A stretch of 64,000 nt of DNA from Vermamoeba vermiformis (lineage: Eukaryota). The stretch covers positions 1-64,000 of the forward strand of contig JBEWZL010000210.1 in the NCBI GenBank assembly GCA_045837725.1, given 5' to 3'. The first letter of the stretch is position 1, and each line of letters opens with the position of its first letter. Under the pieces are notes generated by a model. The model was not told where the DNA came from, made no database searches, and saw only the letters and a list, made by a program, of their open reading frames with translations. Of the stretch, positions 3,526 to 28,136 are shown one piece after another. The translations under genes were made by a program, and so were the position numbers.

Positions 3526-3563
3526 GTTTTGTACAAGGAGTTATCAGTTAACTATTGTGTGAA

Positions 3564-3831: not shown

Positions 3832-3900
3832 CTCAACAGACGATAGCCTGGGCTACTATTGAGCTTATTTATGAGAAATGGGAGCAGCCATGTCCAAATT

Positions 3901-3943
3901 CTGGTACGTCTACCGTGTAGACTTCCAGTTGGTTAAGGAATAT
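3901..3943. repeat. Right terminus of element 1 with internal imperfect palindrome, plus ATAT target site
   Basis: CTGG(TAC)GTCTAC-CGT-GTAGAC(TT)CCAG, then TTGGTTAAGGA|ATAT. Confidence 0.7.
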
Positions 3944-3971
3944 CATCTCATGACTAACCTTTGTTTATCAG

Positions 3972-4649
3972 TTCGAAAGAGTGAAGAAAGAGCAATTAGA
4001 GTACTACGAGATCTTGAAACAGCCCAATGCTGAGCCTGGTACTGCCCTTACCACTAAGTTTCCGTTCAGTGAATGCGTTATTCGTGAAGTGATTCGAACT
4101 TCAGTCTCTGGCATCTCGTTCAGACGCGCCATCACAGACTTTGTTCTGAACGACAACGGAACTAATTACTTCATTCCTAAAGGTAAGGTTAACGTAAATT
4201 AAATCTTTATCGTTAATGTTGTTGTAGACACTTACATAATTATGCCGTATAATACTATTGGCAAGGACACGAGTGTTCACAAAGACCCTGAAGTGTTCAA
4301 ACCGGAGCGATTCGAAACTGAAGCTAAAGGTGCTTGTGAGAACGTCACTTTTGGAGCAGGACGACACCCGTGCACTGGTACGTGAATTAATCGCGATTAT
4401 AATTTGAGCGTCATTTTGGCTAAATAATTTCCCTATCTTTCTTTGGGCCTTCATCTCTCCTCTTTTTCAGGCACCAAGTTCGCGATGCTGAACATCAAGA
4501 ACATTGCATTCAACATCATGAACTTCTACAAAGTTGATGTGCCCGGCGAGGTAGAAAACTACATGCCAAAGATGCAAACAATGGGTGTGTTCAGACCCAT
4601 CAAGCCCGTCATGTTCACTTTGACCAAGTTGAAACCGATCGAGTTGTAA
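3972..4649 (+). CDS. Cytochrome P450, last three exons (5' part lies beyond the transposon, outside the window)
   Basis: ExxR (EVIR), PERF and heme motif FGAGRHPCTG. Highly similar to the paralog at 15765-17737. Confidence 0.92.
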
Positions 4650-4992
4650 AATTGTTTTAATTTGTTTGTCTGTCGTTGTGCACCACATAAAGTGACATAA
4701 CTCCACAAGTTGGTACAGGCAACTAACCGCCATCATGCTAATACAAGATGTCGTTAATGTACGTCCTTTTTTTTAAAAATTAATTAAAATTTATTAAAAT
4801 TATTTTTTTTATTTTTTTGTTTCATAAGTGCGGCGGAACGGCTTCAATTGAACGTGCAATCTAAATAGCCAATTCAAATATTATTGCACAAATTAACTGA
4901 GGTGTGCAGTTTAATCATGTGAAAAAGATGGAATGACAGCTAATTTTGGTTTCAAAGTGTCATCGTTTTGGTTCTTTTTCGATCGACCACGA

Positions 4993-7471
4993 ATGAACGC
5001 GCCACTTTGGAAATTACCCCTTGAAATACGATCTCATATATTTGAATCACTAAGTCTTAGGGACATCGGTCACCTTAGACAATGCTGTTCGGCGTGGTTC
5101 AACATTTTACAAGATCTGTCATTTCTGAAGGTCCTTGATTTTTCTTATTCTCCTGTAAGTATTCAGATAATTAGTTACTTACTATAATCACGAATGAAGG
5201 GCATTAAAGAATTATTTGCAATTTTGTAATTAAATTATTTCAATTCTTATCTAATTTTTGGGTAAATTAGGATATCACGGTGGAGGCCTTCAATGATATA
5301 TTACATTACCGTATTAATGAAGAAGATAATTACATTACAAAAGTTATTCTGGCTCATACAAAGAATTTGACGAATAACGCACTGGAAGAATTGTTTCGGT
5401 ATCTTCCGAGGTAAAACAACCAGTTAAAAGCAAGAGAATAACGTACCGAAATATCCATAAGAGGTAATATTGTTATTTAAGAAAATTTGCTGATTTGGCG
5501 CGCAGAATCCAAGACATCCGAATCCGTCACTGTTTAACTTCAAAATGCATGGCTGTATTGCTCAAGCAAGAAAATTTGAAGGTTATAGTATATGTAAATG
5601 CGCCATTGATCCCATTAAAAAAGGTAACTTTTTGTCGACAAGATCCGATCTGACACGATCTGCAGGTACAAGAGCTAGTTGAGGCCCCTATCGAAGTCAA
5701 ATGCACTAAATTGACCCGTAAGATTATATTATATATATTTCTTGCTAAAGAACTGATTAGGATTCAAAATGGTGCGAGAAAAGAGGAGCCCTGATCTCGA
5801 TCTGACGCTAAAACTCAAATTGCTTGAAATGAACCCGAAGCTTAAGACTGATATAGATTTTATACTTTTTTTGTTGGAGTCAAAGCCATTTCAAACGGAA
5901 ATTAAAAATCGTCAATGCGACTTGGTGTTTTCATCAAACGATCTGCGTCTTTACCGCCAGATCTGGGAAGCTGAATCGATATGGCCCTTAGTATGAACAT
6001 AATATTACTTACTTATATTAATATACTTACGTTACTATTAAATTGAAGACGATCGATGTACTCCTCAACAAAACCATGCCCCTATTATGCGCTTTTCCTC
6101 TGGATCAACGAATGGCGAATAAGGATGCATGGGCGAGTAAGTATTATTGTAATTCACAAATGTATTAATAATAGGAATAATTAAAAATAACGCATAACAA
6201 TAATATGACCCCAAACTTCCCTGAGAAATCTGACGATCTGCATCTGTATGAAAACTTTGACTTCATGTTTAACCTTTCTGTCTGCAGTTGCCTATACAAT
6301 TCTTAATGTTCGAAATAAATGGTTCGGAGAAGACAGTTGCAGGAAGATAAATCAAAATAGGGAGTGGTTAGAGATACTCGCGGATCTGCAAGCGGTCCAC
6401 ATCCAAGATGAGGAGCTAGAACAAGCTCGTAAAAAGTTGGTATAATATAATTATATAGTATTGTAGTTACTAAGCATATCATTAGATTCCAAAAGAGACC
6501 TTTTCATCAAATTGCGTATACTTCTTTTATGGATATCAAGTTGAGTACGCTGAGGAACTTAGGTACGAGGCTTAAAGCCTAAATCTTCATATAGTATTAT
6601 ATTAGTAATAATAATATCATTCAGAACTTGAACCAGAGCTACACGAGCAATTTGAACGCGAGTTAAGTACTGTGGTTGAAATAGTTTCTCTGTTGTTGAA
6701 AAAACTGCCGATAAGATTTGGATTAATGCAGGGTAACATAATTATATCGTTGTGCGATTTAAATACTAATACAATTAACAGCTATTTCGTTATTAAACCG
6801 CAAGCAATTCCAGGAAAGTAAGTCAAATATACTACCTTTTATTTTAACTCCCAATTTACTTAACATCAATTTATAGGTTACGACGAGTTCTGTAAGCATA
6901 TTAATGCGCAGCATTACCTTGATATGGACTCCTATTCGTTAGCACAAGATCTCTATTCTCAAGGTATGAATGGACCAATGCTTTGACGCCATAAACTAAA
7001 TCTGACTAATATAAATTAATTTCTTATGTAGCTTTCTTGGGCGCGTATCACGTGGCAAGGGATTACCTGAAAAATCCGGATCTATTACTACAACTTGAAA
7101 CTTTGAGTCCAGACAATTACGATAAAATCTTTAGGCATTTTTCTAGAGCTCAATCCGACTATAATGAAGGTAATAACAATTTGAATTCTTTACGATTTTT
7201 TGTTGATATTTCCTATTTAGGCAAGTGTACTAAACGACAGCAGTATGGCAACTGCTATTGGTACGTGTGTTATACATGCGCTGCTGATGACGGCGAGTGT
7301 AGCGGACTATGTTATGGCTGCGTTCAGTCATGTAAGACTAAACAATCGATGCAACATGTGATATTAATATAATATTCTGTAGGCCATGCCGGTCATCAAG
7401 TAATGTATGTTAATGTTTCTTTAACCCCTTGCAATTGTAGACAGCCGCAGTGCGATAAATATTTTTCTTAA
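4993..7471 (+). CDS. F-box protein with C-terminal UBR-type zinc finger, multi-exon
   Basis: N-terminal LPLEIRSHIFESLSLRDIGHLRQCC F-box. Spliced C-terminus reads CT..WYVCYTC..GLCYGCVQSCHAGH..CNC. Internal exons are not fully resolved. Confidence 0.75.
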
Positions 7472-7557
7472 TTGTAATAATAGTTGCCCTGTACGATGCA
7501 AAAGAAAGATTTTATTAAAATTAAAGAGTTAAACAACGGAACTAAAACTCCGATTGT

Positions 7558-10500
7558 TTAAATATTGCGGCTGGCAGGAGGGCAGCGCTTAGGAATGGCA
7601 TTGATAAGACTTTCGGGCAAAGAGTCCACCTCGAACAGCGCTCCGTAGTCGGCGATTGCACTAAAAAAAAGAAAGAGAAATTAGACAACAGTGCTTAGAT
7701 TAACTTAGTCTCGACTATGAACTTACACGCTCTCAACGCCGTCTTCCCAACTCTTCTTGGGTCCAGCAATGACTTGCATAATGGTGTACTTGGCCGCTTC
7801 GAACTTCCATTCGCAGGTCTGAGGATTGACGTAGCTGAGGCAGCAATAGAACTTGCCGTACTTGGCAGGAATCTTGACCTTTCTGTACTCGTCGAAAGCT
7901 GCATTGACGACCTCGATGATCTCTTTCTCGGGAACGTGAATGGACCAATCACTAGTGAGCGCAGCCCAAATCAATTGTTCACTGTCGTCTATGAAAAACT
8001 TTTCAAGGGCACGCAAAGGCACCGGCTCAATTTGAGTGGGACCAAAGTCATCAGGCATCTTGGCACCAGCAGGCACATCAACCTCAAACGATCCTTCGGC
8101 CAAGGGATACGACGTCAAAGTGTTAATGTTGGTCGGTCCGTCCACGCGGTGCTGATGACGTGCATCGCCCTCAAAGACGTTGTAGTGCAGCGCCATTTCG
8201 ACCTTGTGCGTGCCAGGACCAGCGCGGAGCAAGTAGCTGTAGAGCAATCTGGACTTGACAGACCACGAGTTCGCGTGATTGGCGAAGTCAATGCCCAAGC
8301 CGAGGACATTGAAGAACACTGTCTGCTGCGTGTTGAACAATTTGCTGTCGCCCATGAAGTAACCAATGCTCTGCTGGAACTCGTGTCTTGGGTGCACGGG
8401 CTTGCCATCGATTTTGACCTGCAGTGACATGACCAGCTTGGGACAGTTGACCACGGCGTCCATGTGACCGTCCACGGTGTACACAGGAGTACCATCCTTC
8501 TTCTTGCCAATAGCGTAGTTAGCGAGAGATCGAGGCCACACTGCACGAGCACTGATTTGGTCTGACAAACTGAATTTGGTTTTCAACGCGTCCTTGTTTT
8601 GATCGATGAGCAGAGGAATGTCACCGGCGCCAAAGACGATCTTGCCAGCATATGGCGCGGTGTACTTGACGAATGCTTCGTGGTTCGTGCTGTCAGGTCT
8701 CTTGCCAAAGGGAAGTCCGCTTTGTGCGGGTGTGCCAGGACGAACAAGCTCGTAGTCAGGCATGCCAAAGTCTGCCTCAGTAGGCTGCCACAAGTCAGTG
8801 GGAGCAGTTGGAGTGGGCCAAACAGGTTCCAAGTCAGGAGTTCTGTCTTGCGGGTGGAAGCGGAATTCGCTGTCCAAAATTCTCGTCAAGCGGGAAATGA
8901 AGAAGCGACGGGCAACGGGCCACTGCTCGAGCTGCTTCAAAACTTCCAAGATATTCTCTTGCGTGTGATAAGGCGCCCGTGCGTTGGCGCGGACAATGAC
9001 TGACTCAATGAGGGACAAAATCTTCGAGACCTTGCCGCTGTGTTCTTTTTGGTAGATGATCTTGACCAATTCGGCTTGGTAGGGCGGGATGTTCGGGAAC
9101 TTTATGTTGAGCGAGTGCAATTCAGAAGCGATTTCATCGGCAAAGTCTGCAAGGTTGCTACGAGAAGCACCAACTTCGTTCACGATACGGCAGTACAACA
9201 TGCTGGCCTTCTTCAAAACCGTCACGAATTCTTCGACCAAGGTCTCGCGTTCCAAGTTCTCGGCAATGTAGCTGAAGCCCGTGTTGATTTGGTCCCACAT
9301 CGTTTGTCTCACTGTGTCCTTCTCGGTCTCTGGAATCTCTAACACTTGCTTCTTAAGCTTCTCGAGCAACGACCGCGCGTGATCCCACTTGCCGGCAATG
9401 TACTTAGGAGGGTTGTAAGGTTCACCAAGGACCACATGTTCTGTGACCTTTGCATCACGAATAAGCTCGTTGACGGCCTTCTTCCACTCGCCGTTAATGG
9501 TCAAAACGCTTGTATTCCATTGAATGATGAAGGTGCGCGTCTTGCCAGGAGTGTCAGCTTGTGCTTGGAGACTGGTAAATGGGGAAGCCACGTGAATGAC
9601 CCACGGGCCAACAGTAGCTGAGACTGGACCATTAGGGAAGCCAGGAGCATTGGGCACTATAATAATAAATGATTTAGTATCGATGTCTAACTATAATTGT
9701 CAAAGGTAATTAATTACCTGACTTGACAGGGGCATCAGCACCACCGGCAGCAGCGGCGCCTCCCATGGCAGCAGTAATCGTGCGCTCCAATGAATCAAGA
9801 GCGGTGCGTGTCTCGGCGACGTAGCTGACAACAAGAGGCAAGGTGTTGTAGGGCGGGCTCTCGAGCTCAGCAAGGCTGTCGTAGGCCTTGTTCAACGCGT
9901 CCAAAGCCTCTTGGTGGCGTGAGTGATCAACAAAGGTCTTGGCAGTGTTCACGTGACTCTTGCCAGCGTTGATCTTGTCGTAGACGACTCTGCCAAACAT
10001 GGCCTCGCCGATCTTGGCCTCTAACTGGTCGAGAGCAGGAACGGTGTCCTTCAAGAAGGCGATGGTGATGGCGATGGTGTTGTAAGGAGTCTCTTGAAGT
10101 TCTGCAATGACTTCACGGGCCTTGGCAACAGCAGTGAGAGCCTCGGTGTTGCGGCTGTGGAAGTTCAAGTCCTTGGCAGTCGAGATGTGAGTGTTGGCAG
10201 CACGGATCTTATCTTCAACGACTCGTCCGAACAGAACTTCAGCAATCTTGCCTTCAAGAGCGTCAAGGGCGGGCTTGGCGTCCTTCAAGTAGGCAATAGT
10301 GGCTTCAAGTGTGGCGTAAGGAGGCTGCTCGATTTCAGCGATAGCACCACGAGCCTTGTCAATAGAAGTGAGGGCTTCTTCGTTTCTTGAGTGCTTGTGC
10401 AAGTGTTCAGCTTCAGTGACTAAGGTCTTCACGGCACGGATCTTGTCTTCAACCACGCGACCAAACATGGCTTCACCGCACTGACGTTCGTATTGATCAA

Positions 10501-13492
10501 TTTGCTTCTCGAACTCGGGCAAGAACTCCGCAGTGAGCTTCAAGCTGCTGTAGGGAGCTTCTTTCAGTTCGGCAATGATTTCACGGGCCTTGGTGACGGC
10601 ATCAAGGGCTTCTTGGAATCTGCTCTGATAGTGCATGTCCTTGGCAGTGCTCGCGTGAGTCTTGCCGGCACGAATCTTCTCTTCAACAACTCGGCTGAAC
10701 AGGGCTTCACCACACTGTGTCTCATACTGATCAATTTGCTTCTCGAACTCGGGCAAGAACTCGGTAGTGAGCTTCAAGCTGTTGTAGGGAGCTTCTTTCA
10801 GTTCGGCAATGATTTCACGGGCCTTGGTGACGGCGTCGAGAGCCTCTTGGAATCTGCTCTGATAGTGCATGTCCTTGGCAGTGGAGCCGTGAGTCTTGGC
10901 TGCACGAATCTTCTCTTCAACGACTCGACTGAACAAGGCTTCACCACACTGACGCTCGTACTCATCAATTTGCTTGACGAAGGGGGGAAGGAAACTGGCA
11001 ACATCTTGAAGTGAGTTCCAAGGGGCCTCTTGCAACTCGGCGATGACTTCACGGGCCTTGGTGACAGCGTCGAGTGATTCTTGGAACCGGCTCTGGTAGT
11101 GCATGTCCTTGGCAGTGGAGCCATGAGTCTTGGCAGCGCGGATTTTGTCATCAGCAAGGCGAGCAAACATTGATTCACCGCACTTCATTTCAAGGTCATC
11201 AATCTGCTTGACGTATGTGTTGAGGAAGGTCTTGACAATCTCCAAATTGACGTAAGGAGGTTGAGCAAGCTCGTTGATCTGCTCGCGGGCCTTGGCAACA
11301 GCGTCGAGTGACTCTTGGAATCTGCTCTGGTAGTGCATATCCTTGGCAGTGGAGCCGTGAGTAGTAGCTTGACGGATCTTCTCCTCAGCGACACGAGAGA
11401 ACATCTTTTCACCGCATTGTTTCTCGTACTCATCGATTTGCTTGACGAAGGCTGGCAAGAATTCGACAACGGCCTTGAAACCGTTGTAAGGTGTCTGGTC
11501 GAGTTCGGCGATGACTTCACGGGCCTTGGCAACTGCGTCGAGTGATTCCTGATATCTGCTTTGGTAGTGCATGTCCTTGGCAGTGGAGCCGTGGGTCTTG
11601 GCTAAGCGAATCTTTTCGTCAACGACTCTGCCAAACATCTCTTCACCACACTTCTTCTCGTATTCATTGATCTGCGTAACGAAGGCTGGCAAGAACTCGA
11701 CGACGGCCTTGAATTCAGCAAAAGGGGGATTAGACAGCTCAACAATGAGCTCGCGGGCCTTGGCAACAGCGTCGAGTGACTCTTGATATCTGTTGTGGAA
11801 AAGCATGTCCTTGGCCTTGGCACCGTGGGTCTTGGCTTCACGGATCTTGTCGTCAACTAAGCGGCTGTACATGCCTTCCCCACATTGCTTTTCGTATTGA
11901 TCGATGAGCTTGATGAAGTCAGGCAAGAATTTCTCAACATCGGCGAAGGTGTTAAACGGGGCATTGGACAACTCGGCAATGCTTTCGCGGGCCTTGGCAA
12001 CAGCTTCAAGAGCTTCCTTGTATCTGCTATGATAGTGCATGTCCTTGGCTGTGGAACCGTGAGTCTTTGCAGCGCGGATCTTGTCATCGACAATTCGGCC
12101 ATACATCTTCTCACCGCACGACTTCTCCAGGTCATCGATCTTGGGAATGAACTTGGCCAAGAAGTCAACAACGGTCTTGTGAGTACCAAAAGTCGATTGC
12201 AGATCTGAGATTGCATCGCGAGCCTTGGCAATGGCGTCGAGAGCCTCTTGATATCTGCTTTGGAAGTGCATGTCTTTGGCCTTGTCACCATGGGTGTCAG
12301 CAGCGCGAATCTTGTCGTCGATAATTCGGCCATACATCTTCTCACCACACGACCTCTCCAGGTCATCGATCTTGGGAATGAACTTGGCCAAGAAGTCAAC
12401 AACGGTCTTGTGAGTACCAAAAGTCGATTGCAGGTCTGAGATTGCATCACGAGCCTTGGCAATAGCGTCGAGAGCCTCTTGATATCTGCTTTGGAAGTGC
12501 ATGTCTTTGGCCTTGTCGCCATGGGTGTCAGCAGCACGGATCTTGTCGTCGATAATTCGGCCATACATCTTCTCACCACACGACTTCTCCAGGTCGTCGA
12601 TCTTTGGAATGAACTTGGCCAAGAAGTCTACAACAGTTTTGTGGGTACCAAAAGTCGATTGCAGATCTGAGATTGCATCGCGAGCCTTGGCGATGGCATC
12701 GAGAGCCTCTTGATATCTGCTTTGGAAGTGCATGTCCTTGGCCTTGTCGCCATGGGTGTCAGCAGCCCGGATCTTCTCGTCGATAACTCTTCCATACATC
12801 TTCTCACCACACTTCTTCTCGTATTCGTCAATTTGTTTGATGAAGTCGGGAAGGAAGGTAACAACGGCAGAGTGAGTGCTGTACGGGGCTTCCGAGAGCT
12901 GAGCAATGCTTTCGCGGGCCTTGGCAACAGCGTCGAGTGACTCTTGATATCTGTCTTGGAACAGCATGTCCTTGGCCTTGGCACCGTGGGTCTTGGCTTC
13001 GCGGATCTTGTCGTCTACTACTCGTCCCATCATAGAATCAGCAATCTTCTTCTCGATGGTGTCGATCTGTGCACGAGACTCGGTGACAAACGTCTTGACT
13101 GCGTCAGCGAAATTGTAAGGAGCTGCGTCCAATACAGCCAAAGCAGTGCGAGCCTTATTGACGGATTCAGAGGCCTCAGCGTATCTATTGTGGAAGTGCA
13201 TCTGGTTGGCGTTGGTCAGGGGACCTTTGACGTCTGAGTACAAGCCATCCAAAGCCTTCTTGACGAAGTTGCTTGCGTCGCTTTCGAGCTTCTTGAGGTC
13301 ATTCTTGGCAGCAGTAACGAACTGTTGAGTCTTGGCAAAGGTCGCGGGAACGATCTTGGTCAGACTTTCCTTTTCAAAGGCGACTACTGCGTCTTTAAGC
13401 TTAAGCACTTCTTGGAGTTGAGCATTAGCCTCTTCGAAGGTCTTGAATTCACGCTTCTTGAGCGAGTTGAGTAAGGCTTCTAGCGCTTCCAT
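7558..13492 (-). CDS. ~1935-aa protein with 15 tandem 77-79-aa helical repeats and an uncharacterised C-terminal region
   Basis: Exons 13492-9718, 9656-7727 and 7660-7558 join in frame. Strong codon bias toward C/G-ending codons. Confidence 0.88.
9790..13260 (-). repeat. Coding tandem repeat array (231-237-bp unit, 15 copies)
   Basis: Unit ..KIRxAxTHGxxAKDMH(F/Y)QSR(Y/F)QE(A/S)LDAxxKAR..P(Y/F)..FLP.F.KQID.YE..CGE repeats. Three 231-bp copies at about 12110-12800 are nearly identical. Confidence 0.95.
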
Positions 13493-13890
13493 GCCTACAA
13501 CAACAAAGATCAGTGTCAAATCCAACGAATCTCGGATTACAATCAAAATTTTATGCATTAAAAGGCGTAATTAGATTATATGTTGCATTTATAATAACCT
13601 ACCTTTGTTTCGCTCGTGTTGTATCTTTAAGGCAAGTAATAAAGTAATGCGTGTTCAAGGATCTTTCCTTTTATCCTCGCTCTCGTCACTTACAATGTGA
13701 CCAATATCGATAAACTACCAATCATAAAAAGGACCGAGCAATCACATCACATTTTTCAGTTCCATGAACGATGGGCGCTGAGGTCCCTTCGTCACGCGAC
13801 ATTCGCAGAAAGAATTAATAGACCCTAACAAGCTATGTCAGCAATAAGAAACCACATATAATTGAAAGATTACTCACGAATAGGTATATA

Positions 13891-14348
13891 TGTTCAGACC
13901 CGTTAAGTCCGTCATTTCACTTTGACCAAGTTGAAACCGATCGGGTTGTAAAATTGTTTCCAATTCATTTGTCGTTGTGCACCACATAAAGTGAGATAAC
14001 TCCACAAGTTGTTACGAGCAACTAACCGCCATCGTGCTAATACAAGATGTCGTTAATGTACGTCATTTTTTTCAGATTTGAAACAAATTAAAAATGCAAC
14101 TAAAAAATAGTCCATTCAATATGAAAAATTACAAATAATTTAGACGAATTTATCACGATAATTACCATACAAATGCCTTCCATACCAGATTTAATTCAAG
14201 AGCGGATGGTGTTTCTTAATAAGTGCGGCACGGCTTAAATTGAACGTGCAATCGAAATAACCAATTCAAATGTTATTGCACAAATTAAATGAGGTGTGCG
14301 GTTTAATTATGTGACAAAGATGAAATGACAGCTAATTTTGGTTCCAAG
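13891..14348 (+). pseudogene. Duplicated fragment of P450 3' end plus downstream flank (copy of ~4589-4952)
   Basis: TGTTCAGACCC...TTGACCAAGTTGAAACCGATC...ACAGCTAATTTTGGTT matches 4589-4952, with an indel in the coding part and extra sequence in the flank. Confidence 0.88.
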
Positions 14349-14706
14349 CCAAGGCCGTTTCAGCGTTTGACAAATTTATTTTTTGAGCACAATCGTCAAT
14401 GGATAACAGTAACATGATATTCTATATAGTGCTACTTCTACAAAGTTGAATTGCCCGGCAAGGTTGAGGAGTTGACGTGATCGAGTTGTAAGCTTCAATT
14501 AGGAATATAATGTAAATGATCAATAGCAAACGAGATAAATGAGATAGTTGTAAGATTTGAAGGGTTATTCCATTATGAAAGCTGTTCTTTTGCGGATCCA
14601 GGATCGATCTGCAAAACCCCGCCAAAAAAAAGAGAATGCTTAGAATATAACTTTATCTAGGGAGTGAATTCCTTTCGCTGACGTATTATTTCGAGAATGC
14701 AATTGG

Positions 14707-15219
14707 TTACAAGTTGTCTTCATTTATCTCGACGTAGTTGCCATTCAGATTCTGCAATCTGATCCAATTGAACTGCAACATGTACGCTTGAACCAAGTAA
14801 TAAACTTTTGCATTGACGCATTTAAGGTCGAGCAAAGACTTGTCTAAATCAGCAAGATCGGGCAGATCCGCTAAACCATTTTCAAGGCCCCATTGGAGCA
14901 AATTCTTGGCCCATAATACTTTATATTTGTCTGGCATATTCTCGTATTCAATAATCAAGGTATTAGGTGTAGCTAGCTCAATTGAATAATTAACAGTAAG
15001 CCCAGGTTTTTTTAATCCGTCTTTCGCACGGTTAACGCGCCGGTTTTTGAAGAAGTGGCATTCCTCTATAGTAATTCCATTATATCGATTATCTAATACG
15101 ACTGGTTCTCTGTGGGGACCCCAGACTGTTTCTGGGAAGCTGTCAAAATCCAAAACGGCAAAGACTGGATCGCCATACTCCGTTAATTTGGTTCGGTTGT
15201 CGTCTATAATTGGGTCCAT
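14707..15219 (-). CDS. Hypothetical intronless protein (~170 aa)
   Basis: Open frame from ATG 15219 with globular-looking composition. No motif recognised. Confidence 0.5.
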   Translation of the reverse strand: MDPIIDDNRTKLTEYGDPVFAVLDFDSFPETVWGPHREPVVLDNRYNGITIEECHFFKNRRVNRAKDGLKKPGLTVNYSIELATPNTLIIEYENMPDKYKVLWAKNLLQWGLENGLADLPDLADLDKSLLDLKCVNAKVYYLVQAYMLQFNWIRLQNLNGNYVEINEDNL

Positions 15220-15764
15220 TGTTTGAATGTAGGTTTGCAATCAATGCTCTGTTTAAGGCAATTGCGGTCAAATAAATTCGTCAGCTCGTTACCTTTTGGA
15301 GCGAACACCACACACGGACAATTTTGCTTCGTATCGTGCAATAATTAGCAATAATATGCCAGGGTGCGCTCGTCAAGTGGGTAGTGTCTTTTCTTGCCGT
15401 TCTGTAAGTGCGCTCATTTTCTAGATGTGAAGGTGGGTAAAATTAACTACTAAACAATTAACTGAATAATTGAACGCATTATCGTTATAATTAATAATAA
15501 TATTGTTGTAATTTTAGTAATTTTTGTAATTTTTGAGCTGGAATAGTTCATCCCGTAATGGTAATTATTTTCATTTACTTACTTTATGCAGGGCACGCAA
15601 GTACGGTCGTGCCAAAAATTAATTAAGAGGGCTCTATTTCGTTAATATGCCAAATATGTTGCACGTTTTACCGAGATCAGACATGTGTTTTAGTTCACAA
15701 AATCTTATCAAGACGTGAAATTTTATTAACTAGTATACTAGTTGTATGTTAGTTGCAGCCACAA

Positions 15765-17737
15765 ATGCTCGTTTGGATATTATTGCTCTTATTTGTGGCG
15801 ATCGGCTTGGCGGTAGCTTGGGAATGGAAACAACGCCATCCAAAGTCAGATATTCCAATGCCACCAGCTATCAGTTTATCAGAATTATCCCCTAAAACTG
15901 GCGAAAACATTGATATAGTATTCGATCGCTTGAAAGCAAAATACGGAACTTGTTTCAGATTCAGAGTCCCGTTTTACGCGCACTTTGTTGTGACTGTAGG
16001 CGCTGCCTCGTCAAAAACGTATCATATGTTAAAGGACGATGAAGTTAGCGTTAGTTTGGGCTATAGAGTAAGTTTATAATTATAATTCCATTTAATTTTA
16101 ATCGGGATCTTTGCCGCTTTTGTCAAAGTAAACCGTAATATCTATTCTTTTTGACTAATATATATAAAATAATTCTCTAATATTATTTGGTAGTTTTTGA
16201 ATCAATTGGGACTCGGCTCGAGCCATTTGAAAGCTGTGATCCGCGACAATACAATGAACACGTTTATTCCGATGCTGGAGAAAGCTTTTAACAAAGAGAG
16301 ATACAACCATTTTGCAAAAGTCACTCGTGCAGGCCATATTGACTATATGAGACGTTTTTGGAACAATGAAGTTCAGAAAGTCGATCTGTTTGTCGAGATG
16401 TACGTCTTGAACATCCGTTTGATCATCAGGTAAATATATTATAGTAGTAAATATCGCACTTAATATTAAAATGATATATTTAGAGCGTTTATGGGTGATT
16501 TTGAAGAGGAAAAGGTCGCTGGATTGATAGAGACGTTCAAAGCCCTAGATCTAGAAGAGCGAATCAAAGGACTGTCCAATATAGCACATAACTTTACTCC
16601 TAGTGGGCGCAGAGAACTTGAGAGTCATTGGAGTGCCACTCGAGATCTGGTCAAGTATCTCGTTGAATACCGTAAAAAACATCAAAGTGCTACGAGTGAC
16701 GTTGAATTCTTCGACTATTTGACTAAACAAACTACAGATGATAACGGTAAGATCCATTTTATAATAACGTCGTCTTAATAACTAAGTCCAATAGTGCGCG
16801 GAATAATTCAATTGTTACGACGAGTGACACGTGTCACTCAAAAACAGACCGTGCATTAATTTTAATTCTTTTGTTAATCGTAAATTAGATGTACTTATAT
16901 ATTGTTGCTATATTTAGGTCAGATTGACTACGAGTTATTAACGTGTCGCGTCTTCTCGGTTATTTTCCTCGCTATTTTGAACACATTCGCCACGAGTGCT
17001 TGGTTCTTATTCCGAGTCTTTGATAATGCTGCAATTGTACGTGCGATAGTTAGCACGTAATTAGAGCAACACTAACAATCGTTTTAGTATGAAAAAGTGA
17101 AGAAAGAACAACTTGAGTACTACGAGATTTTGAACGATCCCAACGCTGAGCCTGGCACTGCGCTGATCAACAAATTTCCGTTCAGTGAATTAGTTTGTTC
17201 GTGAAGTAGTTCGTACTTCAGTCAACGGCATCTCGTTCAGACGTGCTGTCACAGACTTTGTTTTGAATGACAACGGCACCAATCACTTCATTCCGAAAGG
17301 TCAGTAGAGCAGTATTGAATTAATATAGCATCCATTTATTAACAATTTTTATTTACTAGGCTCGTACGTGATTATGCCGTACAGCACGATCATCAAGGAC
17401 ACGACCGTTTACAAGGACCCTGAAGAGTTCAGACCTGAGCGATTCGAAACTGAAGCCAAAGGTGCTTGTGAGAACGTTGTGTTTGGCGCGGGACGACACC
17501 CGTGCACTGGTAAGGGAATTAAGTTTGGTCATACCTTGAACTAATGGACTTTTTTCAGGCACCAAGTTCGCGATGCTGAACATCAAGAACATTGCATTCA
17601 ACATCATGAACTTCTACAAAGTAGATGTGCCCGGCAAGATCGAAGACTATGTGCCTAAGATTCGAAGTATGGGTGTGTTCAGACCCATCAAGCCCGTTAT
17701 GTTTACACTGACCAAGTTGAAACCGATCGAATTATAA
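15765..17737 (+). CDS. Cytochrome P450 (CYP7/CYP51-clan-like), full length, with an apparent +1 frameshift at ~17195
   Basis: N-terminal membrane anchor, I-helix LAILNTFA, ExxR, PERF and FGAGRHPCTG. One extra T relative to the paralog, just before the ExxR codons. Confidence 0.88.
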
Positions 17738-18593
17738 ACGCAACAAAGGTTTAGTACGCCGCATCTACGGACCATCGTTGACGTTGCTATGACACGACCA
17801 GCATTGGCGTAGTTCGTGGTCTCAATAGCTTTTCGCCCTAGCGCAAGGGTTACGCGATACGCGTCATTGCGAGTACCACCTCGTAGTGACGTATACCACT
17901 CATAACAAAGTATTTAGCTATTTGGCGATGGTTTAGGGTATGTATTATCTACACATCGTTTGCTTTCTTTAAAACTTGCATTCATATACGTTCCTATTCT
18001 ACACCATTCACTCCAAAAATAATTACAAAATTAGTAATTGGTGATCGACAGAATTGCAAAGCAAATTTATAAATATATTACAACGCTTTGAGAAATTAAT
18101 TTGTCGCATTCAACTAGATCTAGGGGACTTTAACTTACCCGGCCGGTAGGAGAGAGTCCTTGCAAGCTCTCGAATGCCGAGCATCTGGACCCACGATAGC
18201 AGAGTGGATTCGGTTTACACTGACGTTTACGTCAATCTTTAATTAGGCTAAAAGTTCGCGGAGGTTTTATTGGCTTCGTTTAACCGTTTTCAAAGCGCAA
18301 CTTTCCCGACAATGAAACCACAAGGATAAGTCTACTATCCGACCTTCTAAATACTGAAAGCCCCTCTCGGTGAGGATATTTTACCGTATCAAGTCAAAGG
18401 TTACCCGCTCTTCGAAATCTGTTTTAGTGGAGCCTTTGTAGGTAGACTAGAAAACTTGATTAGCTCGAAAATTGAGGCGGGAATTGCTTCCGAAGATCAA
18501 TACTAAAAATAACGCGAATCTTTTGATACGTTACACAGTGCCAAAAACTTTAATGTTTCATTTCAAATTAATTAATTGAAGAAGTTCAGCAAC

Positions 18594-20146: not shown

Positions 20147-22896
20147 TTTTCAATTGATTGTGCAGTAAAACGATTTACTACAACTGAATCTTCATTTTCT
20201 GACCTCGATACAATCGGAATTAGATAAGAGCGACAATGAAGAGTAACGTTGTTGCAGTTAATAAAGCACCACTTGAAACTTGATTTGCCGCTGGAAGTTT
20301 TCCACTGTCCGTTGGCTGAGTCGACTGCGGTGCTGATTCGATTGGCGTCGCTACAACAGGACTGTTGTCCGGGCTGTTGATAATCGGTCCTGCTACCGGT
20401 GCTGGAGAAGGTTGAGAGGTCGAGGCAGGTGAAGATTGTGGTACCGTGCCTGGTGTGCAGCCAAAGTACTCTCCAGTGCAAACACCCGCTTGACACGTGT
20501 CATTGTGAGTACAACTATTGCCGTCATCGCACGGAGTCGCGTTTGGCATGTTAGTTAGTGCCGGGCATTCTCCGCTTGGCGGATAGCACAGTGATGTTTG
20601 ACAGTCTGTTGTCGGACACTGTTTCGAGTCCAAAGCAGTGCAGACACCTCCCATGCACACAGATGATGTTGAACATGCGCTGTAGTCTTCGCAGGATGTT
20701 CCGTTAGGGTAGAGTTGACAGTTATCCACGAAGTTGCTGGGAATATTTACTGCCGTTGCACCACCAAGCCACGTCCATTGGTTAGTTGGTACGTGATATC
20801 GCCACAAGTCTTGCAATATTCCTACGATAGCACATTAGAAACAGTAATAGCAAAGAAGATGTCGTCCTAATTGATCGGTGTTACTTACCATTGTTGTTGA
20901 CACCGCCAAACAAGTAAAAGTAATCGTCTTCTTGCCAATACACGGAAATGGCACGAGGACCAGGGAAGGCATCATCGGAGGGAACTCCGAGTTGTCCGAA
21001 ATTTCGATTGACACGTGTATAAGGATTGGAGCTACCGTGCATCCAAGTCCATTCGTTGTTTGTGTAGTCATATCGCCACAAGTCATTCAAGAATTCCCAT
21101 GGATATTTGACAAAGCCACCGAACAGCCAGAAATACCCGCCGTAAGTCCACGTTGCAGCAGCACCTCTGGCAAACGGAAGATTGTCCGATGACGGAACAT
21201 TCCGAGTACCGTACTGGCCCATCGGCAACGAGCCATTGTTGTTGCCGCCCATCCATGCCCAGCCATTGACAGCGCGATCAAACTTCCATACGTCATTCAG
21301 AGGACCTTTTAGTGACCCTGTTAGTTAATTTAAACTGTCTAGTTGACAAATACTTATTTTTGTAACGTACCAGGACCAAGAGTATCATAGCCAACACCTC
21401 CAAACAGCCACAAATTGCCTGCTGCATCGACCCAAGAGGCGCCGAAATATCTAGAACCGGGAGAATAGTCTGTAGATGCCACGCCTAGCTGGCTCGGTGT
21501 ACTGTAGTGTCCATTATTGATAGTAACTAAAGTCCACTCATTTGTAAATGGATTATAGCTCCATAGATCATTTAGAAAACCAATTACTAATGTAATAATT
21601 GATTAAAATCAATTCTGTTTCAATTGTTTTTGCAAGCAATTACCGAGCGACTGGCCACCGAAGATCCAAAATTTTCCATCGGGACTTTGCCAAGAATAAA
21701 CAAATCGTCTTGCAGATGGATAATAATCGACGGAAGCATTGCCTTTAGGACCGATGACACCGGGGTCTGATGTACCAATCATGGATCCGCTCATCCAAGT
21801 CCATTCTTTTTTCTTCGTATTGTATCTCCACATATCAGTAAGGAATCCTAAAAATATATTCCATTAAGTTATATTCCCCTTTAATCAGTATTTCAATTAA
21901 AGAAACAGAAAGGTCTTTTAAATTAAATTTTTTCTTTCAGAAAATGGGACCAGCCTCAGCACTGCCACCATAGATCCAATAATTGTCATTGCTATCCATC
22001 CAAGCTGCGTAGCCGACCAGCCAGGATATTGTCCACCGGGATTTGTGCCGTACTCTGCTCGTCGACGGTAAACTCAGTGGCCTCCATAGATCAGTTCGGT
22101 TTGTACTGCCAAAGGCACTGTCCCCTTTTAATGATGTATAAAAATTTTTCGATCTATAATGTACCAAACTTGACTTACATGAGCTATCTTCCGATACGCG
22201 CATAAAAACATTTGAATTGCTGTCAATTTGTGCAGCTGCACCTATAAATCTACCAGGCATGACACGAGGAAAATCATTTGATGGCGCAACGGGATCCGTT
22301 GTTGCGTTATATCCGAACAACCAAGTCCAAGTCAGCTTTGCCGGATCAAACCGCCATAAGTCGTTAGAAAGAGATGGCGTTGCTCCACCGAACAAATAAA
22401 ACAAGCCGTTTGAATCTGTAAATGCTACCGGATATTGAACGCCGCCTGGTCCGTTATTCACATCAGGAACGCCTTGAGTACCATAAACACTAGGCATATG
22501 CCTTAACCTCCCAGCGAGATTTTCACCAATAAATTTTATCAGTGTAAAAGAGGAAACACAACTAGTGTTAGTTTTATATAAACTATCCTTATATTTATTG
22601 CTGGTATATAAATCGTTTATTTACAGCACATCCAGGACTCAATGATCATGTAATAATAAAGAGGCGATAATATAGCCAAAAATATATACTACATCATAAC
22701 GAGCAGATAAGAAATATAATTAGTTAAGAAAAAAAGAGAAAGAAATATATATATATATTCGATATTTCGCAGCTATGAGCAGAGAGAGATTCAGTTTTTG
22801 AGATCCAAAAGCCCCATGCCCAGTGCCTACATTTTCAGATAACTGACCTCAAATATATTTACTACGAACTACGCAATATCACAACAGCCCAGGCAT

Positions 22897-23040
22897 CGAC
22901 TCAGTCCCCACCACCAGCGACCCCCCAACGTAATCCGATGAATGTAATATATACGACCATTCATTGTCAAGCTCGACTCAGTCCCGCCCAGCGACCAAAA
23001 ACACATGCGCAAGCGACTCAGTCCCTGCCACCAGCGACCC
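22897..23040. repeat. Three short subterminal direct repeats in element 2
   Basis: CGACTCAGTCCC..CCAGCGACC starts at 22897, 22974 and 23014. Confidence 0.85.
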
Positions 23041-24052
23041 AACCGCTACCCACGCCGCTCTAAGGCCCCCCGCAACAAACGAAGAATAGGAACGAAAGTA
23101 TAAGCCCATCATCGTATTCCATATCCGATAAATTTTTGCTTATATTATAACAAAAAATAGCCATGCACGTCATAATAATTTTGACAAAATATAAATTATT
23201 TTATGGCCACAAAGCTAACGGTGAGGAAACAGACACCAGCCATTGATCAAGCCCGAATTACGCACATGCCGCAAATCAAATGACCTGTATAATTATAAAC
23301 ATATGAATTAAGGCTCGGAAAGTAACAAACGATCACAACTCCTCATCAACTCATCACTTCCATACCAATTTTCAAATCAGATTTAGTTTTTAGGCGCAAT
23401 TTTTAAAAGTGCTCGAGTTTACTGATAAATCGCAGCAAACTGCAACGGAAACAAAAGATGTTATTAACCACATCAAAGTAATGATATTTCTTAATTAATT
23501 GTTGAGAACAGCAGCGCAGCAGAAGAAATAAGTTAAAAAAAAATGTAGATTCGGATTTGACCCATCAAGACAGCTGCTGATATAACAAAGGCAATATTAT
23601 ATTTATATACGTACATTTATATCGTGCGCACGAAGGAGAATTAAATTCGAAGGTTGTCTAAGCAAGATCGCGGATTGAGCAGCCACGATCTGGCTTACCT
23701 GGGCAGCAGTGCGTAAATGATTTCGTGCACATGAATTTCTATATATATTGAAGTATATGAGCAATGTTTGGTGCAATTTTACGTGTTGGTGTGGTTCAAT
23801 CTACATTCGTCAAAACGAATCTCCAAAAATGGTCGCAAGTGACCGTTACAACTTCAAAAAGCCTCCCAATTCAATCAGGGAGGCCAAAAAATACTGTCGC
23901 TACCCATAGTCACTCGCTACGGGGCGTTACAAAAATCGAAACCAAATGGCAACTTGGTTGCCGTTTTATGGCGTTGCCATATTTCGGCGTAACAAGTGTC
24001 ATTGAAATCAAAACACACCACGCTAGTTTTTGGAATTGTAGTGAGTAATAAA

Positions 24053-25215
24053 ATGGCAACATCTCACAACAGTCGAAAGCGCTCCTTGCCCAGTCATTTC
24101 TCTGACTATGTTACTAGTAATGCAGCTCCTTCTGCAAAGAAACAAAAGATTTCTGTCACTTGCAAAAACCAAAAGACTGCGGTCCCCAATAAGAAGGTAA
24201 GTGTTGTGATTGTTTGAAATCTCTGACGTCAGAATAGCGTAAACGCCTTGCTGATGAAGTTGACGAAACTGAACCAAAAGAGAAAAAGCAGAAGAAAGCC
24301 AACGCAGCTTCCATACAAAACTGGCAAAAACAGCGCATTGACCTTGGATGGACTTTGCCTGGAGCCAAGTTCAAACCTCCAGCAATAAAAGAGCTATCAA
24401 ATCGTGGTCCAAAGAATATTCCTGTCAACAAAGAAGAATGCACAGAGATTGATATATTCAATCTCTTTGTTGAGGATATTATCGAATATTTGGTCACTCA
24501 AATTAACAACAATCGCTGCCCCAATGGTATAATTGATTATGAACCAACAAGCAAAGAAGAAGTGCTCCGATTTTGGGCAGTTTTAATGGCTCTTCCCTTC
24601 TCTGTTTGCAAAGCTTTGGATGATGTTTGGGCTACTGACTCAACAAGTTATGGATTGTGGGGAATGCCAGTTGTACCAACTTTAATGTCAAAAAATCGAT
24701 TTCATCAATTGATGGCAATGCTTCATGTTGATATACCAACTATTTCAGAAGTGGCAAATGCAAAAAGTTTGTACTGACGTAATATAACTTTCCGTTACTT
24801 ATCACAATGTTAACACTGCTCAAGCATACCAGCGACAAACTATTGATGATGCCCACCCTGCTTGGCTTGGACGTCTCATCTTGACTCATAAGCCAAGAAA
24901 AAAGAAACCTCATTAATCTATTACAATAACGATGGAGAATAATCTCGCTGAAGTCAACGTATGGTGGCTCCAACAACTAAAAAATATGATGAATTCAAAG
25001 CACTTTGGCGCCTGTATAACAACTTTTGATTACAAGGCTGTGCTGGAAACTCTTCAGAAACTGCCAACCAAGACGACAAACATTAATTAGAAGAAGATTC
25101 ATATTCTGCACATGTTCCTGCTAGAAGAAACAGAAGATTGCATTTTTGTATTGAATAAAGTAGATATTTAAGCGCTCTATTTTGCACAAGACTGATTATT
25201 CAACGTTGCTGGCTC
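24053..25215 (+). pseudogene. piggyBac transposase remnant
   Basis: IFNLFVEDIIEYLVTQIN..EEVLRFWAVL..W..MSKNRFHQLMAMLH and TIDDAHPAWLGR..KP, followed by stops and loss of most of the catalytic core. Confidence 0.88.
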
Positions 25216-28136
25216 AAACAATAACAAAATAAAACAATCAAGGAAGCCACAGAAAACAGATATCAAAAGACAGAGCATTTCCAAAAAACTCCAAGAAGAT
25301 GTTCCCAACTTTGTCAGGCTTTAACAAGCAATGTAGCAATCCTGCTGACATCCACTTTTATGGACAATTCATCAAAGAAGCGAGATACTTGGAAGAAAAG
25401 ATGCTGCCATGATCGACCAACCTATTTTTTCAGCAGTATTCTGAAACAATCAAAATCTATAACAAAATAGCAACATTGCATAGAACAAGTTCTGCTTCTC
25501 ACACGACACTCTAGCTCGGCAGGAAAGAATAATGTATCCCTCAGAGGAGGAGACAAAACCTTCCGAAATCCATTATAGAAGAATATAGATGATCAAAGAA
25601 TTGAAGAACTTTTAACAATCATTTTCGACAGAAGAATTAAAAAAAAACAAAATCAATCTTTCCACAAAAAAGCTACCCAAAAAAATTAAGCCAAAATGAT
25701 GTATACTTCCATCAATACTCCAAAATAGGTCAACCTTGTTGGAGTACTGCATGCAGAAAATAAACAGAGTAACCCTAATGGGCTGCAGACTCCACCTCCA
25801 CGTGGTCAGCCTGGAAACTGCGCAGCACAGGCAAAGGAGTCACTGAGTGGTCTGCTTTGCAGATAAGTGAAACAAAGGGCTACAGGTTGTATCACTATGC
25901 TTACAATCTGGCGTTACAGGTTAAGTCCTAGAGGCGTTGAAGGACACCGTACAGTCTGCTGTCTCATTCTCAGGCCAGTTCATTTTGATCTAGCTTGTGC
26001 CTCAGATCTGCAACGGACAGCACTGTCATTAGCTCAGTGTTGCTCTTTAGGATCTAGTGGGGACACAATCCCTGCTCATGACCTGTAGTTGCGAATGCTG
26101 CATGTGTCTTTCTTTATATATATATCATTTCTTTATTATTGCACAATACAAACATTACTAACAATCAAAGCCAGGTTCTATCTTGTATCTGTAAAAATAA
26201 ACCTGTATGACTTCTGTAATTTTTCTAGAATTCTTCAAAGGGGATGGGGCATGTCCAATTTTTGTCAGTCTACTACTAACTTTCAATTGCCTATCCAATG
26301 GTGCAAGAATTATTGGATTAGGAAGCATAGAAGCTGAGAAAACATAGTATACTAATCTTTACTTAGGCTGGCAGTTTAAGGCATATTGATCATATTGCTG
26401 CCACTGATCCACGTCCACTCATTTGATGCAATACGATATCGAATTACGTCGTTCAATAAACCTGTTTAATTTTTAAAAATTAAAAATTTAATAATTTATC
26501 AATTAACTGTTCAAACTCGTAATGTATGTTAATTGAATTTAATGGAGACTTACCCGCGACGGTGCCGTTCTTCTCCATAAATCCGTATCCTCCAAATAAG
26601 TACAATGCGGAGGCATCGTTACTGAGCCAACCAACCGCGCCAAGACGAGAGCCAGCTTCTTTTGTAGTTGGAGTGTTGAAGATTAGTTTGCCTGGAACAT
26701 TAAGATTCGAACTTCCTGCAACTTGACGCCATTGACTTGTTGCAATATCAAACCGCCATAGCTCACTTAGAAGTCCTATTTAAATCAATTAAACGATGAA
26801 GGATAATGAAAAAAATTCTAAGGCCAATGTATGCCTTCAAAAGAAAGAAAACTCGCGAATTATTGCGGCGATTTGTCTGTCATAATGTCGTACAAACCTA
26901 GAGTAGTCGAAATAGTGAATCCTTCGCCGCCAAACATCCACAACGATTGAGAAACAAACCATCCAGTCGCGTATGATCGACCACCTGGAACACTAGACAA
27001 AACAGTGTATTTTCCTGTTTGGTTGCCAGTGTCAGATCCGCTGACCCACATCCACTGACCAGAGCTCAAGTCAAAGGTCCACAAATCGTTCAAATACACT
27101 ATAGATAAAATCTATTAAACTACTAATCGAAACAGCGTCATGTATCGTACCATTTGTACCAGGTACGTTATTAATACTATATTGGCCTTGAGTACCATAC
27201 ACTCCAAGCGCATTTGCGGTGTTTGAGCCACTGAGCCAAGTCCATCTGTTTGTTGCTGTACGAAATCTCCAAAGATCGTTCATGATTGATCCTACGACAT
27301 TAGCGGTTGGTTATTACTACTTAAATATCATTTATGTTACGTTTCATACCATCAGGTAGTTGTCCGCCAAATAAATAGAAGTTTCCGACACCATCCGACC
27401 AAGAAACGGATCCAGATCTCGCTCCCGGTGTATTCTCTTCTGCTTCTTCACCTTTATTGCCATATACAGGTGCTTGATTAAGAATAGCGCTGTCTCTTTC
27501 CATGGACCAGGTTGAATTGAGATTCCACCGCCAAACATTATACAGTTTTCCTTAAAAATAAGTTTTGTAAATTTCAAATCCTTTAAATGAAAATATTTGT
27601 ACCAGAGTCGCCAACGTCTTGTCCGGTTGTTAGTTGAGCTCCTTGACCCCCGAAAATGTAGAAATTGTCGATACTATCGACGGAAACTCTTCCTAAGAAC
27701 GTGGCACCACTACGACCTTCCGGGCCAACAGTAACCTGTGCACTTGCATGAAAATAAAGCCCCGCAATCAAAATCAAATACACTGTAAGAACGTTAATCA
27801 TTGTTGCGATCTGATCTGTCAAACTTACCAATCAAACTTGAACCCTTTAAAAGCATACCTGATAGTATTGTTGTGCTCAAAATAATTCAGAAAGTGCATT
27901 GAACTATCTTTCCAGCCAGCGGAATCTTTTTGTGTTGCGAATTGAGTTGTGAATCAGTTCTTGCGGCAGTCGAGCGAGCATATTTAACGTTTTATTAGCA
28001 CTATCTTATCATGAGCATGCACATCTAGTTTGGCTAATAGTTCTCCGACCAGTTCCTGGTATTAGTTTTGTTAGCCTTATTCGCATCCGGATTCAAAACT
28101 TGAGCTACGTTACGTACCAAAAGTGTAGTGGTACCA

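What the first reader, a model, noticed from the sequence alone, without database searches (positions are those of the whole stretch)
3901..26386. Two related piggyBac-type elements use ATAT targets with TTAA buried 3 bp inside the terminus
Seen: element 2 reads ATAT|GCCTTAACC...TTTAAGGC|ATAT, and only excision at ATAT restores the Kelch frame (NMINMPSVYG). Excision at the inner TTAA would leave 14 extra bp. Element 1 ends GGTTAAGGA|ATAT. Their transposases share unusual motifs: LDDKANAWKGR versus IDDAHPAWLGR (DD where piggyBac usually has DE), and GW..GSKFKP..NPGPK versus GW..GAKFKP..NRGPK. Known: canonical piggyBac duplicates TTAA. I recall ATAT-targeting variants (piggyBacA) being listed, but have not verified this. 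Inference: a distinct clade whose cut site may have shifted outward from an ancestral TTAA boundary.
Basis: partly seen in the sequence, partly recalled or inferred. Interest (0 to 1): 0.75.

Follow-up and report, generated by a model that had tools for sequence, protein, structure and literature searches.

The report
ATAT-flanked piggyBac transposons with deubiquitinase
Jumping genes of the piggyBac family in a single-celled eukaryote appear to insert at ATAT instead of the family's usual TTAA, and one young, intact family carries a ubiquitin-removing enzyme domain in the same reading frame as its transposase, which could give a natural piggyBac with a different landing sequence.

Summary
Element 2 (22500-26382) has 16-bp TIRs with ATAT outside both; removing it with one ATAT restores the Kelch frame, whereas the inner TTAA does not. 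Element 1 and an independent metagenomic family (L001, 65% identical transposase) also end GGTTAAGGA|ATAT, with different flanks. All three belong to one divergent piggyBac branch (DD motif, ~55-residue insertion between the first two catalytic aspartates). The proposed outward shift of the cut site is not needed: 54 of 689 canonical TTAA-flanked beetle elements begin CCCTTAA in the same register. More simply, the outer target pair swapped (T-TA-A to A-TA-T). Against: an apparent empty site shares only TAT, not ATAT, so a TA duplication is not excluded; element 1's left end is unseen; splicing is unconfirmed by RNA. Whether this equals Repbase 'piggyBacA' could not be checked, and one beetle family is already listed with ATAT. 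New variant of a known kind.

The parts
1..3939 (+). Element 1, piggyBac-type transposon; left end upstream of the window
   Evidence: Contig depth about 6000 over the element against 298-541 in the flank in DNA run X3; right end shared with L001
588..1719 (+). USP (peptidase C19) deubiquitinase domain and acidic linker; exons 588-948, 1001-1062, 1112-1381, 1425-1719; Cys11, His210, Asn225/Asp226 present
   Evidence: PF00443 E 7e-16 and 3e-17; USP34 chain 7w3r E 7e-10; same exons in L001; residue numbers
1720..1766 (+). 47-nt GT-AG intron (phase 1) that joins the USP frame to the transposase frame
   Evidence: Predicted; intron at the matching codon and phase in L001 1660-1702, both frames open. 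Not confirmed by RNA
1767..3525 (+). piggyBac transposase, exons 1767-2193, 2242-3405, 3453-3525; D499, D636, D744; C-terminal cysteine-rich domain
   Evidence: PF13843; profile hits 6x67 E 1.6e-7 and 9c0f E 2.9e-5; Foldseek top 3 = piggyBat and piggyBac; open 883-aa model
3564..3840 (.). Subterminal 150-bp tandem repeat (1.8 copies, 96%); a 150-bp-spaced repeat sits at the same place in L001
3924..3939 (-). Right terminus of element 1 (reads TCCTTAACCAACTGGA inward)
   Evidence: L001 has the same first 15 bases
3940..3943 (.). ATAT, putative target-site duplication of element 1
   Evidence: Same 4 bases after the L001 end, different flank beyond; an apparent empty site shares only 3941 onward
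3972..4649 (+). 3' exons of a host cytochrome P450 gene; element 1 sits in the intron upstream
   Evidence: PF00067 E 1e-8; 76% DNA identity to a paralog near 17070-17740
22496..22499 (.). ATAT, left target-site duplication of element 2
22500..22515 (+). Left TIR of element 2 (16 bp)
   Evidence: 14 of 16 complementary to the right TIR
24053..25220 (+). Broken transposase gene of element 2: own ATG, no USP, one predicted intron 24197-24237, open to about 24775, then frameshifted pieces; region with the second and third aspartates deleted
   Evidence: PF13843 E 4e-11; clade profile pieces; first-Asp motif to CRD 296 nt against 1047 nt in element 1
26367..26382 (-). Right TIR of element 2
26383..26386 (.). 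ATAT, right target-site duplication of element 2
22180..22495 (-). Downstream part of the interrupted exon of a host Kelch-repeat gene
   Evidence: Kelch Pfam hits; frame restored by removal at ATAT
26387..26460 (-). Upstream part of the same Kelch exon

Best explanation
Elements 1 and 2 and L001 are three families of one divergent piggyBac lineage. They move by the normal piggyBac route (DDD transposase, hairpin ends, 4-nt staggered joining; inferred from homology), but the duplicated palindrome is ATAT, not TTAA. The cut site has not moved: the TIRs (5'-[G/T]CCTTAA...) are in register with canonical CCCTTAA TIRs. ATAT and TTAA share the central TA. In the T. ni structure the protein's reported base contacts are on those two bases, and the outer T and A are hydrogen-bonded to each other, so swapping the outer pair is a small change (inference). 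Because ATAT is a palindrome, excision should still be seamless (inference). Element 1 is a young, multi-copy, apparently autonomous family whose transposase carries an N-terminal compact USP deubiquitinase. The likeliest role is to strip ubiquitin from the transposase or nearby chromatin and so prolong transposition (inference only). Element 2 is an old, internally deleted, non-autonomous relative without USP.
For: ATAT lies outside the terminus at 4 of 4 ends seen, in 3 families with unrelated flanks; elements 1 and 2 share no DNA similarity by blastn. Kelch frame and repeat spacing are restored. An apparent empty site in run X3 (record 20: 436 nt, aligned 3941-4334, 43 letters left over) shares nothing with the inner TTAA (3933) or AGGA (3936). 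Canonical CCCTTAA TIRs are common. Catalytic D268/D346/D447 equivalents are kept. One branch, 99/96. Structural contacts: PMC7351741 passages. USP fusion: 6 of 6 introns at matching codon and phase, 883- and 887-aa open frames, pS about 0.8 against pN 0.35 (USP) and 0.23 (transposase). Copy number: single-contig depths 5968-6703 against 298-541; 279 of 345 laid X3 contigs at least 99% alike.
Against: The apparent empty site shares TAT only: its base at 3940 is not A. The tool's end points look exact (8 of 8 printed 'before' loose ends finish in a letter unlike the window base, checked by eye), so this needs a SNP (that record differs at 3 letters and 1 gap in 393), a paralog, or a non-canonical target repaired to ATAT. 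Its 43 extra letters were not printed. Only one element has both ends, and its junctions also allow TA, 8-bp or zero-TSD readings. No residue change explains ATAT: N440 is R in 8 of 8 clade rows with that column but also in 5 of 22 outside rows. Ends are unknown for the other clade members (P0002-P0010). The fusion is a prediction: other clade members with long N-termini show no USP, and no full-length fusion protein was found (both weak searches). Depth ratios from assembled contigs are a rough copy estimate.
Confidence: 0.72

Rival explanations
1. Two-base TA duplication: the true ends are one base further out (5'-T[G/T]CCTTAA...TTAAGG[C/A]A-3') and the element duplicates only TA, with a preference for ATAT context.
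For: Gives the same empty site for element 2. The X3 record shares sequence from exactly 3941, the T of TA. The clade has a ~55-residue insertion in the catalytic region that could alter geometry.
Against: Needs T after TA at 4 of 4 ends (about 1% without a context preference). In piggyBac the active-site positions mandate a 4-bp offset (PMC7351741), and IS1380/piggyBac share 4-bp TSDs (PMC10045372). It breaks the register with CCCTTAA TIRs.
Confidence: 0.11
2. One reading: ATAT is duplicated now, but the cut site moved 7 bp outward from an ancestral TTAA|CC boundary that survives inside the TIR.
For: TTAA is followed by CC at 3 of 4 ends, the canonical junction; base 1 is G or T instead of the usual C.
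Against: The same TTAA, and even TTAACC, occurs at TIR positions 4-9 of canonical TTAA elements (54 and 7 cells). Positions 2-6 (CCTTA) fit the published terminal consensus (PMC5381638). Both ends of several families would have had to gain the same 7 bp.
Confidence: 0.07
3. Eight-base duplication (AGG[A/C]ATAT) with asymmetric ends.
For: The longest direct repeat at element 2's junctions is 8 bp.
Against: The X3 record does not share 3936-3940; the left-flank AGGC is ordinary coding sequence (Met-Pro on the minus strand); the other 3 flanks do not resemble the TIR; the TIR symmetry is lost.
Confidence: 0.03
4. USP and transposase are two separate genes, or the USP is inactive cargo (this rival concerns the fusion only).
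For: No RNA confirmation; the USP lacks the zinc-ribbon 'fingers' stretch seen in typical USPs (from the alignment; USP anatomy recalled).
Against: The transposase frame has no Met before its conserved N-terminal GW...KFKP motif; the joining intron is conserved in position and phase in two families whose synonymous sites are saturated; catalytic Cys, His and Asn/Asp are kept in both.
Confidence: 0.15

Closest known systems
Trichoplusia ni piggyBac (PDB 6X67/6X68) and piggyBat (9C0F)
   Same: DDD triad in the same motifs, omega-loop Tyr (Y283) and Y439 equivalents, hydrophobic V414/L416 equivalents (C/W), C-terminal CRD, short TIRs, palindromic 4-mer outside the TIR with central TA
   Different: ATAT instead of TTAA; first TIR base G/T; E269 to D; N440 to R; D450 to N in element 1; D1-D2 spacing 137 against 78; introns; N-terminal USP
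Canonical piggyBacs with CCCTTAA(CC) TIRs (beetle set, PMC12732532 Table S1/S3)
   Same: TTAA at TIR positions 4-7, often followed by C or CC
   Different: They are flanked by TTAA and start with C
AcOb_38 of Acanthoscelides obtectus (same table) and single ATAT copies in PMC5381638
   Same: Listed with TSD ATAT (consensus starts ATAW; 7 copies)
   Different: TIR starts CCTCC; its transposase was not compared; PMC5381638 ascribes such sites to mutation in unique copies
Repbase/Dfam 'piggyBacA' (PiggyBac-A) and 'piggyBacX'
   Same: Recalled only: piggyBacA is remembered as an ATAT-duplicating group
   Different: Unknown: no sequence or description was reachable
Transposon-encoded deubiquitinases (Helitron VTD and OTU domains, PMC9741609)
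   Same: Cysteine DUB in the transposition protein's frame; the VTDs are shown active, and a role in protecting transposition proteins is proposed there
   Different: USP (C19) class, on a DDD piggyBac transposase, N-terminal
Paramecium PiggyMac
   Same: Recalled: 4-nt staggered cuts centred on TA
   Different: Domesticated excisase, not a mobile element; not compared here

Membership tests
piggyBac superfamily | PF13843 transposase with D268/D346/D447 triad | tested here: met
   (D499, D636, D744 in element 1); element 2 keeps only the first
piggyBac superfamily | C-terminal cysteine-rich domain | tested here: met
   CxxC...CxxC...H..C in element 1 and L001 models; degenerate in element 2
piggyBac superfamily | Short TIRs (12-19 bp) | tested here: met
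   16 bp, 14 of 16, element 2; element 1 left end not seen
piggyBac superfamily | 4-bp target duplication | tested here: inconclusive
   ATAT at 4 of 4 ends, but element 2 alone also fits 0, 2 or 8 bp, and the X3 record shares 3 of the 4 bases
canonical (TTAA) piggyBac-like elements | TTAA target duplication | tested here: not met
   Removal at the inner TTAA breaks the Kelch frame; X3 record does not share 3933-3940
canonical (TTAA) piggyBac-like elements | Terminus begins 5'-C[C/A/T][C/A/T] | tested here: not met
   Base 1 is G or T; bases 2-6 fit the consensus
piggyBac superfamily | Hairpin intermediate and seamless excision | not testable with these tools
   needs biochemistry
Repbase piggyBacA / Dfam PiggyBac-A | ATAT duplication and placement with its transposases (definition recalled, not read) | not testable with these tools
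   No reference sequence or text found
USP / peptidase C19 | Cys box and His box with catalytic Cys, His, Asn/Asp | tested here: met
   PF00443 above cut-off in both exons of both families; residues
USP / peptidase C19 | Deubiquitinase activity | not testable with these tools
   needs an assay

The most novel reading that the evidence does not exclude
An uncatalogued protist piggyBac lineage whose transposase itself specifies ATAT by swapping the outer base pair around a conserved TA while keeping seamless excision, and in which one sub-branch carries its own active, finger-less USP deubiquitinase (possibly related to giant-virus USPs) to counter ubiquitin-based control. Element 1 would be an intact, currently amplifying, naturally orthogonal piggyBac.
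Probability: 0.3. Interest if true: 0.78.

Novelty: new variant of a known kind. Interest (0 to 1): 0.6.

Why it matters
TTAA specificity is treated as the defining and limiting property of piggyBac (PMC5381638; PMC13461360 passages). An intact natural family with ATAT ends allows a direct test of the structural model in which the outer T and A bond to each other and T0 cannot be replaced (PMC7351741), and could supply a footprint-free vector with a different target. [quoted passage not shown] The USP fusion would add a deubiquitinase class and a transposon superfamily to the known pattern of transposon-borne DUBs.

Tried and rejected
No whole genome is held, so the genome-wide search for ATAT-flanked pairs could not be run. 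RNA run X17 laid only 11 reads on 1-6000, 6 of them under 90% alike, so it gives no verdict on expression or splicing; X20 did not cover the junction. No RNA holder was listed. Clade transposase scans: 2 of 55 candidate stretches in metagenomes (L001; L002 has no ends), 0 of 106 in viral contigs, 0 of 47 in prokaryote genomes; DE-type relatives 0 of 16 and the USP exon 0 of 62 in viral contigs. Terminus patterns: 0 hits in viral contigs. One hit in prokaryote genomes (L003) is not followed by ATAT, but it lies inside a long bacterial ORF beside a flagellar-type gene (52.7% GC; label recalled) with no other similarity to the element, so I treat it as a chance 19-mer. Searches for longer fused proteins found none; only covered 1267-3615 aa, which misses an 883-aa protein. 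The single-sequence fold of a USP exon was uninformative (pLDDT 43); the transposase model is modest (pLDDT 58). N440 to R as the cause of ATAT specificity was rejected as non-diagnostic. Literature: 10 searches found no description of piggyBacA/X, of an ATAT-specific clade, or of a USP-piggyBac fusion. The review that should define piggyBacA is not held, the PMC5381638 supplement could not be read, and the fused-domain figure of PMC13461360 was not readable as text, so prior description is not excluded. Earlier scan notes held nothing on this element.
Full report
Setting. The window is eukaryotic DNA of about 40% GC with short (39-54 nt) GT-AG introns. No whole genome is held. Near-identical element-1 DNA occurs in runs of one coded organism and in water metagenomes. 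The lineage was not determined; it looks like a free-living protist (impression, not tested).

Observation. Element 2 spans 22500-26382, with 16-bp TIRs (14 of 16 alike) and ATAT on both outer sides. Removing it with one ATAT restores an open Kelch frame whose repeat spacing equals that of an intact repeat in the same gene; removal at the inner TTAA leaves 14 extra bases and a stop. Element 1 ends GGTTAAGGA|ATAT at 3931-3943, in an intron of a P450 gene. The exact 11-mer pattern occurs 3 times against 0.18 expected, although the one-mismatch count is near chance. The junctions of element 2 carry an 8-bp direct repeat, so this element alone cannot fix the duplication length: 0, 2 (TA), 4 (ATAT) and 8 bp all give the same empty site.

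Independent ends. A metagenome scan gave 2 relatives among 55 candidate stretches. L001 encodes a transposase 65% identical to element 1's, with saturated synonymous sites. It ends in the same 15 terminal bases, then ATAT, then a different flank. ATAT thus lies outside the terminus at 4 of 4 ends seen, in 3 families. Laying runs on 1-6000 showed, in DNA run X3, a 436-nt contig aligned at 3941-4334 with 43 letters left over on the element side. I read it as an empty allele or a close paralog (3 substitutions and 1 gap in 393). It excludes the inner-TTAA and 8-bp boundaries, which would require sharing from 3933 or 3936. It also counts against my reading: it shares TAT, not ATAT. The tool's end points appear exact (8 of 8 printed 'before' loose ends end in a letter unlike the window's, checked by eye), so the first base really differs. 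A SNP, a paralog, or a one-off target repaired towards the donor's overhang would explain this; T. ni piggyBac uses one-base variants such as CTAA/TTAG in about 7% of events (PMC3983033 passages), and repair towards the donor is recalled, not read. A TA duplication explains it directly, but then needs T after TA at all four ends. The extra letters were not printed.

Copy number. Single X3 contigs over element 1 have depths 5968-6703 against 298-541 for four flank contigs, a ratio of about 11-22; 279 of 345 laid contigs are at least 99% alike. Six contigs of water metagenome X2 cover most of 1-3565 with 1 difference in all. This suggests a young, spreading family. Contig depth is only a rough guide to copy number.

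The transposase. It matches PF13843. A 13-sequence profile hits only T. ni piggyBac (E 1.6e-7) and piggyBat (E 2.9e-5) among solved chains, and the predicted fold (pLDDT 58) ranks the same entries first. The D268/D346/D447 equivalents are D499, D636 and D744. A search of 1.84 billion representatives gave 37 relatives. In a tree of 36 rows, 14 rows form one side of a branch at 99/96, including element 2's unbroken N-terminal ORF, which does not contain the DD motif (left out were P0001, P0007, seven near-duplicates and five fragments under 180 aa; midpoint root; no named references; sampling biased to element 1's hits). In a 32-row alignment, 10 of 10 clade rows have DD, against 20 DE, 1 DD (long branch) and 1 gap among 22 others. 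D1-D2 spacing is 117-137 in 9 measurable clade rows, 67-87 in 20 others and 78 in T. ni. Element 2 keeps the first Asp motif and part of the clade insertion, but only 296 nt separate that motif from the CRD, against 1047 nt in element 1: it has lost the second and third aspartates.

Did the cut site shift? Probably not. In the beetle supplement of PMC12732532, 54 of 689 cells that begin TTAAC, TTAAT or TTAAG begin TTAA|CCCTTAA, and 7 begin TTAA|CCCTTAACC (sheets S1 and S3 together, some rows repeated, TTAAA not counted). An internal TTAA at positions 4-7 is therefore ordinary, and bases 2-6 here fit the published terminal consensus (PMC5381638 section 10). What differs is base 1 and the outer target bases. 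ATAT and TTAA share the central TA. In the T. ni structures the reported base contacts are a pocket for the methyl of T-3 (V414/L416/Y439) and N440 to A-2, while the outer T0 and A3 bond to each other; the authors state that T0 cannot be substituted (PMC7351741 passages). Element 1 has C/W/Y in the pocket and keeps the Y283 equivalent. An A0-T3 swap is my inference and would be a real test of that statement. N440 is R here, but also in 5 of 22 outside rows, so it is not diagnostic.

The USP fusion. Upstream exons match PF00443 in both element 1 and L001 and USP34 among solved chains. Six predicted introns fall at matching codons and phases in the two families and give open frames of 883 and 887 aa: USP, acidic linker, transposase, CRD (the first attempt had two one-base coordinate slips). 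The catalytic Cys, His and Asn/Asp are kept; pN is 0.35 in the USP and 0.23 in the transposase against pS near 0.8. The transposase frame has no Met before its conserved N-terminal motif. RNA could not test this. Element 2 and other clade members with long N-termini show no USP. The nearest ESM Atlas clusters of the USP exon are mostly giant-virus USPs, a lead only; a viral-contig scan found no close relative. Active DUBs in Helitron frames, with a proposed role in protecting transposition proteins, are the precedent (PMC9741609 passages). Two unchecked notes of this scan report USPs on Helitron and Mutator-like proteins.

Comparison and novelty. These elements work like piggyBac and are members of the superfamily by protein, but fail the canonical TTAA and 5'-C criteria. 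ATAT is not unheard of: one beetle family is listed with it and single copies are mentioned in PMC5381638. 'piggyBacA' is recalled as ATAT-duplicating, but none of 10 searches described it and the defining review is not held. I put the chance that this clade is already catalogued under that name at about one in three (judgement). No USP-piggyBac fusion was found in print; PMC13461360 reports fusions in 4.6% of clusters, but its list of domains was not readable.

What I saw of each paper: passages of PMC5381638 (plus section 10; supplement unreadable), PMC7351741, PMC10045372, PMC9741609, PMC3983033, PMC6431247, PMC8097293, PMC5751038, PMC4455052 and PMC10140906; passages and supplement rows of PMC12732532; passages and a supplement text search of PMC13461360. 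PiggyMac, USP anatomy and piggyBacA/X are recalled.

Verdict. A real, internally consistent variant: an ATAT-flanked piggyBac lineage (0.72 for the 4-bp ATAT, no-shift reading) with a probable USP-transposase fusion (about 0.85) in a young multi-copy family. New variant of a known kind; interest 0.6.

Noticed in passing
window 7723-13570 (minus strand): A very long gene with about 14 tandem 77-78-aa repeats (231/234 bp), apparently spliced to a 655-aa C-terminal part with no Pfam match; GC about 52%, above the rest of the window.
   Followed up: no
window 41931-42546: A gene-free stretch of about 600 bp with roughly 106-bp imperfect inverted arms (72%), single in the window; possibly an old MITE; no duplication identified.
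   Followed up: partly
window 3972-4649, 13890-14500, 15760-17740: Three related P450 stretches; the middle one looks like fragments only.
   Followed up: partly
window 29600-41000: Three tandem paralogs of a multi-exon gene, 75-92% alike, with a carboxylesterase-like look (label recalled, not tested).
   Followed up: no
runs X2 and X3, window 3570-3830: Loose ends resembling L001's subterminal repeat suggest further related families in those samples.
   Followed up: no
window 22897-23040: Short direct repeats (27 bp, 93%) in the 5' region of element 2.
   Followed up: no
PMC12732532 Table S1, row AcOb_38: A beetle piggyBac family of 7 copies listed with TSD ATAT; worth checking as an independent switch.
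   Followed up: no
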